A stretch of 33,994 nucleotides of DNA from a virus (Duplodnaviria > Heunggongvirae > Uroviricota > Caudoviricetes), in the IMG/VR virus record IMGVR_UViG_2802429242_000009, positions 1-33,994 of that record, one strand, 5' to 3'. Shown here piece by piece: positions 3,001 to 6,000 of the stretch. A program made the position numbers. Within the stretch, counting starts at the first letter, position 1. Each line of letters starts with the position of its first letter.

Positions 3001-6000
3001 TTACCCATTCGGAATCAATCTTGATTGATATGCCGCATTCAACGCCTCCGTTGTTGGGAATATCGCGGTATTCATTGCGCCATCCTGCTTTGCCGCAAAC
3101 ATCGTCCAGGCGTTTCATGATTGCCCTGTTCGTGACATAAGCCAGCACCATAGCCCACACCTTTCCATCGCGTGTTTTACCGCTTTGCTGTATTCGCCAT
3201 TCGATATCTTCAGGGCTGAATGGCTCATCGAATTTATTCAAATCCATAATTCACCTCAGAATGGACACGGCCCAAGGAAATAACGCTGATTTAATACTTC
3301 GACTCGGGACAAATTAAGGCATACCCGCATTCCTTCGCGGTCGCCATTATGGCGATACCAGAGAGCTTTCTGCGTGTACATGCGTCTCTGTAACTTGCTC
3401 TCCTTCACTGTGGTTGCAAGTGGCATGAATATCTCCTTCGTTACCGATTAATTCTTTCATCTGACGAATGAATTCTTCGTCTGACCAGTTATCTGCAAAA
3501 CTCATTTCCTGCGATACCACGGAAGGTTGATAGCTGATTTCATCGCTTTATTTGCTTCAAGCCACATTTTTGAATCACCAATAAATCTGGCTATTACTGC
3601 TTTGTTTTGTGCAGCACGAAGCATCTGGTGATTGATGGCTATTTCATTGCGCATAATAAGACCTCAACTCTTTTCCATCCGTCACGTAATTTACGGGTGA
3701 TTCGTTCAAGTAAAGATTCATTTAATTGGAAGGCACCCATGCGAGCGCCTCCCGCGATTGCGTAAATCATGGGTGGTTCCTTATGTTGGTTTTATTAGTA
3801 GGTTATTTTTGTTGCGAATACTTCGCCTTTTACGATGGCTGTTATGATATTTTTAGCAACATCTTCTGATGCGCCAACCTTGATAAGGTCAGCAAGTATT
3901 TTGTTATTTACTTCTTTCCGGTGAGCTTTATCCTTTGCTCTACGCTCTTCTTCGTCCTTGATTCTTTTTTCTTCTGCTATTCTGGCTTGCTCTTTTACTT
4001 CAGCCTCGCGCCGGATTCGTTCAGCCTCCTCCTGTGCTTTTCGGCGTTCTGCTTCAATTGCCGCCTGCTTTTCTCTTTCAGCTCGTTCTGCTGCCTCTTT
4101 TGCTTCGCGCTGTGCTCGTTGCTCGGCTTCAATACGTTCACGCTCTGCACGTTCCGCTGCTGCCTTAGCTTCTGCTTCTCGCCTTGCTGCTGCTTCAATT
4201 TCGGCTTTTGCCTTTGCTTCGGCTTCAGCTCTGGCTTTCTCTTCAGCTTCTCTTTTTAAGCGTTCTTCATGCTCTCGCTTTTCCTGCTCCGCTTTGAGTC
4301 TTGCCTCTTCTCTTTGGCGGTCAAATTCGCGATCCATCAAAATCGCTATTTCATGGTCAGACTCAATTTGCTTTGCGAGAGCTTCAGCTGCTGCCTTAGC
4401 TTCTTCTTCGGCTTTAATCCGTGCCTGTTCCTCCTCATAATCAGTAAGAGGCTGGCGCGCCTTGGCTTTCAGTTCATCAAGGCGATCGCGCACTGTCTTG
4501 CGGTTGGCATCAATTAGCTTTGGAATTTCCTTCAGTTCAGCAACAAGGTCTTTGCCAAGACCATCGAGATATGTTTTCGTCTGCGCAACTTTATACGCCA
4601 GAGAAGCGATCTCCTTTCTGCCCTTTGCCGTTGTGATATCAGGCACAAAGGACATAACTTCACGTTCAACCTTTTGAAGGATTTCTTCAATCTGGTCGGC
4701 AGACTGAAATACAGTCATTGCATTTGCTTTTTCAATAACAACTAAATCTGTTACTTCACTCATATATATCCTCCGTCAAAAAAATTGCCCTCACACTGGA
4801 GGGCAAAGAAGATTTCCAATAATCAGAACAAGTCGGCTCCTGTTTAGTTACGAGCGACATTGCTCCGTGTATTCACTCGTTGGAATGAATACACAGTGCA
4901 GTGTTTATTCTGTTGTTTATGCCAAAGATAAAGGCCGACTATGCGGCCTCGGAAGGAAGCCCAATCATCTTATTCAAATCTTCTACCCGTAAAGCAGGAA
5001 GTGCTGTACTTGCTTTATCTGCTTCTTTTGGTAGCAATTCTTTGCTTTCAGGCCAAACTTCAATAAGTCGCTTAACTGTTGTGACTGAGTTTAAAGCAGC
5101 CCATACATTTGATTCGATATCCTTTTTCTTGGCTTCAAGTTTTTGTTGCAATGCGCAGATTTCATCAAACCTTTTTGTTATTTCGTGTTCTGCGTCAAAC
5201 ATGCATTTATCTTTTTCTGGGGTGGGGAGCAATATATCTTCACCGTTGCCGTCTTTTCCGTATGAATGCCAGCCAACCCTTCTTCCAGATACAGTCAGAT
5301 AAATCGAAGTAGAACGAACATCGCATGAGTAAAATGAACATCCCATCTTCTCAAGTTCTTCACTTATAGCTGCTAACTTGGATGATAACTGATCCACTTC
5401 CTCAGTTTTATTTTCCCCGCCAAACGCAATAACTCTGGCGTCAAGTGCAAGTTGGTTCTTTAACTTTGTTACTTCTTCAAGTTCAGTGAAAACTCCAGAC
5501 TTAATTAAAGCGTTACGAGCGATTTCCTCTTTCATTCTCGTAGTTAAGCGGATTGATGACATATTAATTCCTCTCAAATAAGTGGTTTGCTACCTAATTT
5601 CATTTTCTGGCGACCAACACAAGTCACGCCCATTTCACTGCGTGGCTTGCGGTAGTAAATACGGTTCTGTTTACGCTCGACTTCATCTGCCTTCTTGCAG
5701 CGAAGGCTGCCAAGTGATGCTGCTTTGTCTGCTCTGACGCAACCAGAGAGCTTTAGCGCAATTTTTCGCGCCAGTCGCTGCTCTTGCATTGCCTGTTCAC
5801 GTTGAGCCTGTCTGCGTGCTCTGCGGCGATTTCTGGCGTTATCGTCAGCCAGATATGTAATGACTACTGTCATGTTGACCTCCGGGAAGGTACACATCCT
5901 TGTGTGTCGATGATTATTTGTTTTTGCGTTCCCACATCCAGTCATCTACTTCAGACCAGATAGTGAAACCGAAGCAGATGGCGAATGTGGTAACTAAACC

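What the first reader, a model, noticed from the sequence alone, without database searches (positions are those of the whole stretch)
3795..5562. AT-rich two-gene accessory cassette in the N-proximal slot of the pL operon
Immediately downstream of N, where P22 carries ral/gene 17 and lambda carries accessory genes, sit two genes with no recognisable family: a 207-aa soluble protein (4939..5562) and a 322-aa coiled-coil protein (3795..4763). Both look AT-richer than the flanking N and cIII/kil genes, and an intrinsic terminator (4776..4806) lies between them. This slot is a known hotspot for anti-restriction, exclusion and anti-defence genes, so these are the best candidates here for an undescribed function.
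Basis: partly seen in the sequence, partly recalled or inferred. Interest (0 to 1): 0.7.

Follow-up and report, generated by a model that had tools for sequence, protein, structure and literature searches.

The report
Two unlinked, already catalogued phage early genes
The two genes are real, but they are independent, already catalogued phage genes rather than a cassette: one is swappable Nmad5-family cargo next to N, and the other belongs to a widespread uncharacterised family that almost always sits beside phage DNA-recombination genes.

Summary

**The 207-aa protein** is a full-length Pfam Nmad5 member (E 5e-71), so it does have a recognisable family. It is AT-rich (GC 0.40). It is one of more than 30 alternative cargo families in a hypervariable slot between N and the 322-aa gene.

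**The 322-aa protein** is not variable cargo. It is the constant flank of that slot, preceded by a conserved lambda tL2a-like terminator. It is nearly identical to Sf6 gene 33 and homologous to Pseudomonas phage D3 Orf53 (PHROG 1376, no Pfam family, mislabelled "TolA").

- The two genes assort independently: they co-occur in 14 of 70 Nmad5 loci and 8 of 54 coiled-coil loci.
- In 52 loci, mostly from different bacterial species, a strand-annealing recombinase lies within five genes of the coiled-coil gene in 41. Four unrelated recombinase families are involved (ERF, RecT, Rad52, Sak4).
- A 2025 preprint shows that D3 orf53, like Exo-Erf and Mu Gam, makes phage DNA a target of the Gabija defence.

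My best reading is that the coiled-coil protein is an accessory of the recombination and DNA-end module, and that Nmad5 is an immediate-early, non-enzymatic accessory protein. Neither mechanism is shown. The sequences are not novel; interest is moderate.

The parts
5574..5945 (-). N antitermination gene. This is the longest ORF. The likely true start gives about 99 aa (5574..5873), as RefSeq annotates in a 97%-identical locus.
   Evidence: phrog_271 E 7.6e-38; weak Pfam N_peptide hit; RefSeq annotation of L001.
4939..5562 (-). Nmad5-family gene (207 aa). It is variable cargo of the N-proximal slot. Its ATG lies 11 nt after the N stop codon and follows a GAGGAA ribosome-binding site.
   Evidence: Pfam PF18757 E 5.2e-71, full length; phrog_1965; AF2 model pLDDT 84; BFVD fold matches only to other Nmad5 proteins; sequence of the junction; GC 0.404.
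4931..4950 (-). Weaker hairpin overlapping the Nmad5 stop codon. It may be a second terminator of the boundary region.
   Evidence: Terminator scan: 7 pairs, 5 G-C. mEp234 annotates two rho-independent terminators at the equivalent positions.
4764..4938 (-). Conserved intergenic 'boundary sequence' that travels with the 322-aa gene.
   Evidence: Homology to the window extends 100-190 nt upstream of the 322-aa gene in 64 of 76 related loci. Sf6 annotates bsq4 here.
4778..4806 (-). Intrinsic terminator, the homologue of lambda tL2a.
   Evidence: 8-bp stem with 5 G-C pairs, then T7; stem conserved in 62 of 76 loci while the loop varies; Sf6 annotation 'tL2A'.
4344..4763 (-). 322-aa protein, N-terminal helical domain (aa 1-140). 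This is the conserved core of the D3 Orf53 / Sf6 gp33 family.
   Evidence: 5002 representatives with E<=1e-3. Invariant or near-invariant basic residues R49, K63, K71, K78, K82, R88, R92, R103, R115. 52% identity to D3 Orf53. No Pfam, PDB or fold match.
3879..4325 (-). 322-aa protein, single long charged helix (aa 147-295). Its length varies among close relatives.
   Evidence: AF2 helix H147-295; 80% E/K/R/A; relatives of 245-333 aa at 78-100% identity; repeated GAA/GCN codon tracts.
3795..3878 (-). 322-aa protein, small conserved C-terminal domain ending in I-x-Y-COOH, plus the stop codon.
   Evidence: Consensus HR..IN..A...L...GL.E..AK..I.AIA.G.I..V.I.Y across the family. Only weak, non-significant RuvA_C / UBA-like hits.
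3639..3770 (-). cIII
   Evidence: Pfam Lambda_CIII E 4e-15.
3502..3654 (-). kil
   Evidence: Pfam Lambda_Kil E 1.7e-20.
2540..3247 (-). Rad52/Erf-type single-strand annealing protein. It starts 548 nt downstream of the 322-aa gene.
   Evidence: Pfam Rad52_Rad22 E 5e-26; phrog_1097 Erf-like.
2066..2539 (-). SSB
   Evidence: ORF translation; member of the SSB cluster, whose representative is Pfam SSB.
1267..1563 (-). Abc2 anti-RecBCD protein
   Evidence: Pfam Anti-RecBCD_p2 E 5.6e-61.

Best explanation
The interval holds two independent modules of a P22-like/lambdoid early-left operon. They are separated by the conserved tL2a-type terminator and boundary sequence.

**Module 1: the 207-aa gene.**
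- It is an Nmad5-family gene, one of many interchangeable cargo genes in the slot just after N.
- It sits directly behind N, with an 11-nt gap and its own ribosome-binding site, and upstream of the first strong terminator.
- It should therefore be made with N at the very start of infection or induction, before antitermination is needed (inferred).
- Its model is a helical bundle with a beta-hairpin and no enzyme-like fold.
- I infer that it acts by binding a host or phage macromolecule rather than by chemically modifying DNA.

**Module 2: the 322-aa gene.**
- It is the Sf6 gene 33 / D3 Orf53 family protein.
- Its architecture is a conserved, basic-residue-rich N-terminal helical domain, then a roughly 150-residue ER/K-type single helix acting as a variable-length spacer, then a small conserved C-terminal domain.
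- It is read only after N-mediated read-through of the terminator, together with cIII, kil and the Erf-SSB-Abc2 recombination genes (inferred from gene order).
- Its conserved neighbourhood and the D3 phenotype suggest it is an accessory factor of the phage recombination and DNA-end module.
- It most likely acts at phage DNA ends or on the annealing machinery, in a way that keeps RecBCD off phage DNA (inferred, not shown).
For: **Family assignments**
-; the Sf6 record itself says gene 33 is 'similar to phage D3 gene Orf53'.

**Independence of the two genes**
- 14 of 70 Nmad5 loci carry the coiled-coil gene.
- 8 of 54 coiled-coil loci carry Nmad5, among 46 slot architectures.
- In Klebsiella prophages Nmad5 is the first early-left gene and there is no recombination module at all.

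**Link to recombination genes**
- In 52 loci (48 from one-genome-per-species contigs plus 4 phages), an SSAP lies within 5 same-strand genes in 41: ERF 20, RecT 13, Rad52 4, Sak4/AAA_24 4.
- An SSAP or a YqaJ/PDDEXK exonuclease lies there in 45. The nearest SSAP is the very next gene in 14.
- Gene order varies but adjacency persists. Sinorhizobium phiLM21 has CC-Erf-Exo-NinB. Vibrio BT-1011 has Erf-SSB-CC. Aeromonas has PDDEXK-RecT-CC.
- In 75 close E. coli-type loci, an SSAP starts 470-549 nt downstream in 62. Eight of the 80 fetched loci carry a Sak4-type gene that this scan could not detect.

**Experimental lead**
- D3 orf53 lies 8 nt upstream of erf (orf52), which is followed by exo (orf51).
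- The preprint PMC12407980 shows that orf53 alone, like Exo-Erf and Mu Gam, licenses Gabija targeting of phage and of transduced DNA. Its model is that such factors keep RecBCD off DNA ends.

**Structure and expression**
- AF2 models and composition.
- No terminator-like site was found between N and the end of Nmad5.
Against: **Coiled-coil protein**
- No direct evidence of DNA, SSAP or RecBCD binding exists for any family member.
- The D3 preprint assigns orf53 no homology or mechanism and does not show that it binds DNA ends.
- Seven of 52 loci have no recognisable SSAP or exonuclease nearby.
- In this window, cIII, kil and two small ORFs separate the gene from Erf. Part of the association in lambdoid phages could therefore reflect shared operon position.
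- The phage already carries Abc2, so an anti-RecBCD role would be redundant.
- I ran no formal control family for the neighbourhood statistic.

**Nmad5**
- The only experiment is in Dhillonvirus. A K-to-E missense change lets the phage escape the Tmn defence, deleting the gene does not, and the gene is toxic to clone. This does not reveal a function.
- A catalytic role cannot be excluded from a predicted fold alone.
Confidence: 0.55

Rival explanations
1. One reading: both genes form one AT-rich accessory ('moron') cassette whose products are anti-restriction, exclusion or anti-defence factors.
For: - The N-proximal slot is hypervariable and holds Ral in 8 of 54 loci.
- Nmad5 has low GC (0.404), sits immediately after N, and has a genetic link to the Tmn defence in Dhillonvirus.
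- Both genes have low GC3 (0.33-0.35).
Against: - The genes assort independently.
- The 322-aa gene is the constant flank of the slot.
- That gene is conserved across phages of Gamma-, Beta- and Alphaproteobacteria, always beside recombination genes.
- Its overall GC is ordinary.
- Neither protein matches PADLOC models, which cover host defence systems rather than phage anti-defence factors, so this says little.
Confidence: 0.1
2. The 322-aa protein is a stand-alone, Gam-like protector of DNA ends or inhibitor of RecBCD. It works without the annealing protein and is merely co-located with it.
For: - D3 orf53 licenses Gabija on its own, without Exo-Erf, and cross-complements a JBD30 escape phage.
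- The N-terminal domain has nine conserved basic residues.
- The long-helix architecture loosely recalls lambda Gam and Mu Gam (from general knowledge, not tested).
Against: - No sequence or fold similarity to any solved protein, and no Pfam family matched.
- Abc2 is already present in this phage and in Sf6.
- Tight coupling to SSAP genes (8-11 nt gaps in D3 and phiLM21) suggests joint action.
Confidence: 0.2
3. The 207-aa protein is what its family name suggests: part of a DNA base-modification pathway that chemically alters phage DNA.
For: - In the YuA-like Pseudomonas phage PAE1, the Nmad5 gene lies inside a cluster annotated with a PLP-dependent enzyme, a DNA repair photolyase, a thymidylate-synthase homologue, a deoxynucleotidase and DNA polymerase.
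- The authors of the Dhillonvirus paper assume a modification role.
Against: - No modification enzyme lies near it in the window or in Klebsiella, SPN3UB or Dhillonvirus contexts.
- No catalytic activity has been reported for any member.
- Deleting the Dhillonvirus gene does not change Tmn sensitivity.
Confidence: 0.1
4. The 322-aa protein is a TolA-like cell-envelope protein, as RefSeq and several phage records call it.
For: Database names. The E/A/K-rich helix resembles TolA domain II in composition.
Against: - No Pfam or NCBIfam TolA domain.
- No hydrophobic anchor: maximum Kyte-Doolittle (19-residue window) is 1.03.
- RefSeq now renames some copies 'coiled-coil domain-containing protein'.
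- The family is confined to phages and prophages: 25 of 72,556 plasmid records, nearly all phage-sized and non-mobilisable.
Confidence: 0.02

Closest known systems
Shigella phage Sf6 gene 33 / Pseudomonas phage D3 Orf53 (PHROG 1376)
   Same: - Sf6 gene 33 is also 322 aa and occupies the same position, between the tL2a terminator / bsq4 boundary and cIII.
- D3 Orf53 shares 52% identity over the N-terminal domain.
- D3 Orf53 has a conserved C-terminal domain like the window protein (family consensus).
   Different: - D3 Orf53 is 354 aa and lies directly upstream of erf and exo. Here cIII, kil and two small ORFs intervene, and the SSAP is Rad52-type.
- The Gabija-licensing phenotype is known only for the D3 protein.
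Pfam Nmad5 (PF18757), e.g. Dhillonvirus Nmad5 and the YuA-like phage PAE1 Orf51
   Same: - Full-length HMM match.
- Shared C-terminal core, including the K-[KR]-L-I-x-x-W-P-E and L-N-x-x-x-G-[IL]-P motifs.
- Same predicted fold.
   Different: - Only the C-terminal ~100 residues align with the Dhillonvirus and YuA-like proteins.
- Those genes sit among head genes or nucleotide-metabolism genes, not in an N-proximal early slot.
Lambda Gam, Mu Gam and P22 Abc2 (phage factors that keep RecBCD off DNA)
   Same: They belong to phage recombination and DNA-end modules. In the Gabija study, Mu Gam and D3 Orf53 give the same phenotype.
   Different: No detectable sequence or structural relationship. Abc2 is encoded separately in this window.
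Lambda ral / sieB region (accessory genes of the N-proximal pL slot)
   Same: Same slot. Ral itself alternates with Nmad5 in related phages.
   Different: Nmad5 has no similarity to Ral or SieB, and no anti-restriction or exclusion activity has been shown for it.

Membership tests
Pfam Nmad5 (PF18757) | Match to the family HMM above the curated gathering score, over the whole domain. | tested here: met
   239.4 bits against a cut-off of 27; residues 4-203 cover profile positions 1-206 of 206.
Pfam Nmad5 (PF18757) | Conserved C-terminal core motifs and the fold shared with other members. | tested here: met
   Invariant W170, P171, E172, L196, N197, G201, P203 in 22 homologues. Alignment to Dhillonvirus BF9 Nmad5. 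Foldseek BFVD top hits with a name are Nmad5-family or uncharacterised phage proteins, down to E 3e-13.
Pfam Nmad5 (PF18757) | Genomic association with nucleotide or base-modification enzymes (the basis of the family name). | tested here: not met
   The neighbours here are N and the coiled-coil gene. The association is seen in PAE1 but not in Klebsiella, SPN3UB or Dhillonvirus contexts. This is a contextual feature, not a requirement of the sequence family.
Pfam Nmad5 (PF18757) | A biochemical role in nucleotide modification. | not testable with these tools
   No activity is reported for any member. The model shows no enzyme-like fold.
D3 Orf53 / Sf6 gp33 family (PHROG 1376) | Full-length profile match and homology of the N-terminal domain. 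| tested here: met
   phrog_1376 E 6e-110, residues 1-322. BLASTP to D3 Orf53 E 1e-37. 5002 representatives share the N-terminal domain.
D3 Orf53 / Sf6 gp33 family (PHROG 1376) | Three-part architecture: conserved N-terminal domain, variable charged helix, conserved C-terminal domain ending in Y. | tested here: met
   Alignments A1, A3, A4 and A7; AF2 model.
D3 Orf53 / Sf6 gp33 family (PHROG 1376) | Location beside a single-strand annealing / exonuclease / SSB module (a feature defined in this analysis, not a published criterion). | tested here: met
   In the window the Rad52-type SSAP starts 548 nt downstream and is the fifth gene. Across the family, 41 of 52 loci have an SSAP nearby.
D3 Orf53 / Sf6 gp33 family (PHROG 1376) | Licensing of Gabija targeting. 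| not testable with these tools
   Shown only for D3 orf53 in PMC12407980.
TolA | N-terminal membrane anchor and TolA C-terminal domain. | tested here: not met
   No TolA Pfam or NCBIfam hit. Maximum hydropathy 1.03.
Anti-RecBCD proteins (lambda Gam, P22 Abc2) | Sequence or fold similarity to Gam or Abc2. | tested here: not met
   No Pfam family matched, so none of Gam or Abc2 either. No fold match in the PDB. Abc2 is a separate gene at 1267..1563.
Rho-independent terminator (lambda tL2a homologue) | G+C-rich stem-loop followed by a U-run, conserved at the same operon position. | tested here: met
   62 of 76 loci; Sf6 and mEp234 annotations. Termination itself was not tested.

The most novel reading that the evidence does not exclude
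The D3 Orf53 / Sf6 gp33 family, which includes the 322-aa protein, could be a so far unrecognised, broadly conserved accessory component of phage single-strand-annealing recombination systems.

- It would work with at least four unrelated annealing-protein families.
- It would act at phage DNA ends and exclude RecBCD, which would explain why D3 orf53 licenses Gabija.
- Adding it might improve the portability of recombineering systems between hosts.
Probability: 0.3. Interest if true: 0.65.

Novelty: already known. Interest (0 to 1): 0.4.

Why it matters
**What is ordinary.** As sequences, both genes are near-identical copies of genes already present in published phages: Sf6, mEp234 and CUS-3 for the 322-aa gene, and mEp235 and HK542 for Nmad5. 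The finding therefore does not reveal a new element.

**What may be worth following up.**
- The mislabelled "TolA" gene belongs to a very large family with no Pfam entry.
- It tracks phage recombination modules across Gamma-, Beta- and Alphaproteobacteria, whichever recombinase family is used.
- Its D3 homologue is one of the few known factors that make phage DNA a Gabija target.
- If the family is a real recombination or DNA-end factor, it fills a gap in the parts list of phage Rec modules. It would also give a handle on how Gabija and RecBCD tell phage DNA from host DNA.

**Nmad5.** Its position directly behind N and upstream of the first strong terminator makes it a good candidate for an immediate-early host-interaction protein. 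It is also a tractable lambdoid model for the unexplained link between Nmad5 and the Tmn defence.

Tried and rejected
- **Rfam:** an E-value scan of 3000..7500 found no RNA family.
- **PADLOC:** no defence-system model matched either protein.
- **NCBIfam:** nothing meaningful.
- **Fold searches:**
  - Foldseek against the PDB for the coiled-coil model gave nothing below E 0.3.
  - The afdb50 library was unavailable.
- **Profile searches against PDB sequences:**
  - The N-terminal domain had no hit below E 0.49.
  - The C-terminal domain hit only designed repeat proteins, plus RuvA domain III at E about 1.
- **Pfam on the coiled-coil family:**
  - A scan of 50 full-length family members found no shared family.
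  - A scan of the C-terminal domains gave only weak RuvA_C hits in 2 of 22 members. I treat this as a lead, not a result.
- **Silas et al. 'orf184':** I asked whether this gene, which shares an accessory region with ral and triggers gop-beta-cII, is one of the two window genes. No sequence was available in the text, and searches of the related paper's supplements for peptide and DNA strings found nothing. This remains unresolved.
- **D3 orf66 and Nmad5:** I tested whether D3 orf66, another Gabija-licensing gene, is an Nmad5 homologue. It is not (hhalign probability 0.1).
- **Plasmid leading regions:** I tested whether the coiled-coil family occurs there. It does not: only 25 records match, nearly all phage-sized and non-mobilisable.
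- **Locus fetches:** two attempts to fetch distant loci with broad alignments failed because no conserved stretch was available.
- **DUF1351 / Gp157:** I could not test the remembered resemblance to these Gram-positive phage proteins found next to recombinases. Pfam gave no hit to either.
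Full report
**Setting.** The window is a P22-like/lambdoid prophage. Its early-left operon runs on the minus strand.
- Gene order: cI-type repressor (6413..7063), N (5574..5945), a 207-aa ORF (4939..5562), a 322-aa ORF (3795..4763), cIII, kil, two small ORFs, a Rad52/Erf-type annealing protein (2540..3247), SSB, an HNH-like ORF and Abc2.
- Megablast finds parts of the 3400..6100 region at 95-99% identity in 345 phage records and in 2386 of 5426 complete E. coli genomes.
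- Only 37 of those genomes hold at least 80% of the region in one place. That already signals mosaicism.

**Check of the observation.**
- Both ORFs have the stated coordinates and lengths.
- The terminator is real as a sequence feature: an 8-bp stem with 5 G-C pairs at 4806..4785, followed by seven T.
  - The same stem, with variable loop bases, precedes the 322-aa gene in 62 of 76 related IMG/VR loci.
  - The Sf6 record annotates it as the homologue of lambda tL2a, next to the 'boundary sequence' bsq4.
  - mEp234 annotates two terminators there. The window also has a second, weaker hairpin at 4950..4931.
  - The 207-aa gene has GC 0.404, the 6th percentile of same-size windows, and GC3 0.33. 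That is below N (0.489) but equal to kil (0.405) and close to cIII (0.432).
  - The 322-aa gene has GC 0.460, the 21st percentile, and reaches 0.50-0.56 in its centre. Only its GC3 (0.35) is low, because codons for Glu, Ala, Lys and Arg raise GC at the first two positions.

**The 207-aa protein is an Nmad5 family member.**
- It matches Pfam PF18757 over its whole length: E 5.2e-71, 239 bits against a cut-off of 27. RefSeq names it accordingly.
- Homologues at 34-96% identity occur in prophages of Escherichia, Cronobacter, Klebsiella, Raoultella, Pantoea, Erwinia, Providencia and Serratia.
- An AF2 model built on 22 homologues is confident (pLDDT 84). It shows three long helices, a beta-hairpin insert, a fourth long helix, and a poorly ordered tail that carries the invariant L-N-x-x-I-G-x-P motif.
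- The family name comes from genomic context. In the YuA-like phage PAE1 the gene lies among a PLP-dependent enzyme, a protein annotated as DNA repair photolyase, a thymidylate-synthase homologue and DNA polymerase.
- No such enzymes lie near the gene in other contexts:
  - not in this window;
  - not in Klebsiella prophages, where Nmad5 is the first early-left gene and is followed by kil, xis and int;
  - not in the nin region of SPN3UB;
  - not in Dhillonvirus, where it lies among head genes.
- The only experimental data are from Dhillonvirus (PMC11846954).
  - A K216E or K296E substitution in Nmad5 lets the phage escape the Tmn defence.
  - Deleting the gene does not.
  - The gene could not be cloned, apparently because it is toxic.
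- In my alignment with Dhillonvirus BF9 Nmad5 (254 aa), K215/K216 align with the nearly invariant K164/R165, just before the W-P-E motif. This is probably the escape site, but I did not have the sequences of the phages used in that paper.
- In the window the ATG lies 11 nt after the N stop codon, behind a GAGGAA ribosome-binding site.
- No terminator-like site lies between N and the gene's end. I infer the gene is expressed with N, before antitermination is required.

**The 322-aa protein belongs to the D3 Orf53 / Sf6 gene 33 family.**
- It matches phrog_1376 (unknown function) at E 6e-110 and no Pfam or NCBIfam model.
- The database name 'TolA' reflects composition only. There is no TolA domain and no hydrophobic anchor.
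- Close relatives at 78-100% identity range from 245 to 333 aa. All the length differences lie in the central E/A/K/R tract, which is encoded by repetitive GAA/GCN codons.
- The AF2 model (pLDDT 84.6, 50 homologues) gives three parts:
  - an N-terminal helical domain;
  - one uninterrupted helix, residues 147-295;
  - a small C-terminal domain.
- The helix is 80% E/K/R/A and only 10% hydrophobic. It may be an ER/K-type single alpha-helix rather than a classical coiled coil.
- An exhaustive HMMER search with residues 1-125 finds 5002 cluster representatives at E<=1e-3 and 3562 at E<=1e-10.
  - Ten of them, and then 50 aligned members, have no Pfam family.
  - Conserved positions include nine basic residues: R49, K63, K71, K78, K82, R88, R92, R103 and R115.
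  - The C-terminal domain is conserved across the family and ends in I-x-Y-COOH.
- Neither domain has a solved relative by sequence profile or by fold. RuvA-domain-III-like hits for the C-terminal domain are below significance.

**The two genes are not a cassette.**
- Of 70 IMG/VR loci with a near-identical Nmad5 gene and at least 2.5 kb downstream, 14 carry the coiled-coil gene.
- Of 54 loci with a near-identical coiled-coil gene and an N gene upstream, 8 carry Nmad5.
- The N-to-coiled-coil interval in those 54 loci is 388-4198 bp long.
  - It has 46 different gene architectures built from more than 30 gene families, including Ral, DUF2528 and many orphans.
  - CUS-3, APC_JM3.2, Sf6 and mEp234 illustrate the range.
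It ends at the tL2a-type terminator, and the coiled-coil gene is its fixed right-hand flank.

**What the coiled-coil gene travels with.** tblastn finds the N-terminal domain in 157 phage records. Hosts include Pseudomonas (D3, PAJU2, JBD44), Vibrio, Klebsiella, Erwinia, Shewanella, Acinetobacter, Sinorhizobium and a cyanobacterium.
- Individual contexts:

| Phage | Arrangement |
|---|---|
| Sinorhizobium phiLM21 | gp10 (homologue), Erf, YqaJ exonuclease, NinB |
| Vibrio BT-1011 | recombination protein, SSB, homologue |
| Pseudomonas D3 | orf53 (homologue), orf52 ERF, orf51 YqaJ exonuclease; 8-nt gap between orf53 and orf52 |

- I then fetched 59 loci from a collection with one genome per species.
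  - I called ORFs, clustered them, and named the recurrent neighbour clusters with Pfam.
- Results for the 52 loci with an intact homologue (including 4 phages):
  - an SSAP lies within five same-strand genes in 41: ERF 20, RecT 13, Rad52 4, Sak4/AAA_24 4;
  - an SSAP or a YqaJ/PDDEXK exonuclease lies there in 45;
  - an SSB lies there in 17;
  - the nearest SSAP is the very next gene in 14.
- In Aeromonas the order is PDDEXK exonuclease, RecT, homologue. Adjacency therefore survives rearrangement.
- Among 75 close E. coli-type loci, an SSAP starts 470-549 nt downstream in 62. Eight of the 80 fetched loci carry a Sak4-type ATPase that this scan could not detect.
- For comparison, a paper citing Bobay et al. 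2013 reports that 134 of 275 lambdoid (pro)phages have no annealing protein at all (PMC12315714).
- I did not run a matched control family. The enrichment is therefore an argument, not a statistic.
- The family is essentially absent from plasmids: 25 of 72,556 records, mostly phage-sized and non-mobilisable.

- D3 escapes Gabija only by deleting orf52-66.
- Three factors each independently restore ('license') targeting: Exo-Erf (orf51-52), orf53 and orf66.
- orf53 also cross-complements a JBD30 escape mutant and sensitises a cos plasmid to Gabija during transduction.
- The authors' model is that DNA ends kept free of RecBCD, by Mu Gam or by Exo-Erf resection, become Gabija substrates.
- Their table gives orf53 no predicted function.
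- The D3 record shows that orf53 is the 354-aa gene directly upstream of erf. It is a clear homologue of the window protein: 52% identity over residues 5-122, E 1e-37.
- The Sf6 authors had already noted the relationship.

**Interpretation.**
- Shown:
  - both family memberships;
  - independent assortment of the two genes;
  - the hotspot and its terminator boundary;
  - the conserved recombination neighbourhood.
- Inferred:
  - The 322-aa protein is an accessory of the phage recombination and DNA-end module.
  - Its N-terminal domain, which carries nine conserved basic residues, is the likely working part, binding DNA or the annealing machinery.
  - The charged helix acts as a spacer that tolerates length changes, and the C-terminal domain as a docking module.
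  - Its action leaves phage DNA ends free of RecBCD.
  - Nmad5 is an immediate-early, non-catalytic binding protein.
- Points against the mechanism:
  - Abc2 is already present.
  - Seven of 52 loci lack any recognisable recombination gene nearby.
  - No biochemistry exists for either family.

**Novelty and score.** Both genes are near-identical to genes in published phages and belong to catalogued families, so the feature is already known as sequence. The residual interest lies in one link, which I did not find stated in the searchable literature. It connects a very large orphan family, phage recombination modules built on four different recombinases, and the Gabija-licensing phenotype of D3 orf53.

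Noticed in passing
window 4931..4950 (-): A second hairpin (7 pairs, 5 G-C) overlaps the Nmad5 stop codon. mEp234 annotates two rho-independent terminators at the equivalent positions, so the boundary region may hold a tandem terminator pair.
   Followed up: partly
window 1577..2539 compared with locus L001 1170..2140: The HNH-endonuclease-like ORF (159 aa, no Pfam hit) lies after SSB in the window (order Erf, SSB, HNH). In the 97-98% identical E. coli N-01 prophage it lies between Rad52 and ssb. The HNH gene therefore looks mobile within the recombination module.
   Followed up: no
window 1267..1563 (-) and 305..571 (-): Abc2 anti-RecBCD protein (Pfam E 5.6e-61) and a Lar-like restriction-alleviation protein (E 1.9e-9) lie further down the same operon. 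The phage thus carries at least two known anti-host functions besides the genes examined.
   Followed up: partly
window 535..1113 (-): A 192-aa ORF with no Pfam family, at the distal end of the early-left operon.
   Followed up: no
window 3879..4325 (-) and proteins P0005-P0114: Near-identical relatives of the 322-aa protein range from 245 to 333 aa through indels confined to the E/A/K/R helix. That region is encoded by repetitive GAA/GCN tracts (27-nt family D1, five copies), which points to frequent slippage or recombination within the helix-coding region.
   Followed up: partly
locus L088 (JAFADF010000066.1, 'Actinomycetes bacterium' MAG): A 3.9-kb contig in an actinomycete MAG carries a coiled-coil gene 100% identical to the window's, plus Rad52 and SSB. 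This is almost certainly E. coli phage DNA mis-binned into the MAG. Similar doubts apply to the hits in Coriobacteriia, Bryobacterales and Pirellulaceae MAGs.
   Followed up: no
window 5574..5945 (-): The longest N ORF is 123 aa, but RefSeq annotates a 99-aa product in a 97%-identical locus, starting at MTVVITYLADDNARNRRRARR (5873). In many Nmad5 loci only the last ~35 codons of N stay 80-100% identical, so a mosaic junction may lie inside N.
   Followed up: partly
bioRxiv 10.1101/2023.04.06.535777 (Silas et al.): An unnamed accessory gene, 'orf184', lies in the same accessory region as ral and triggers the gop-beta-cII abortive system. I could not obtain its sequence, so I could not tell whether it is one of the cargo families of this slot.
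   Followed up: partly
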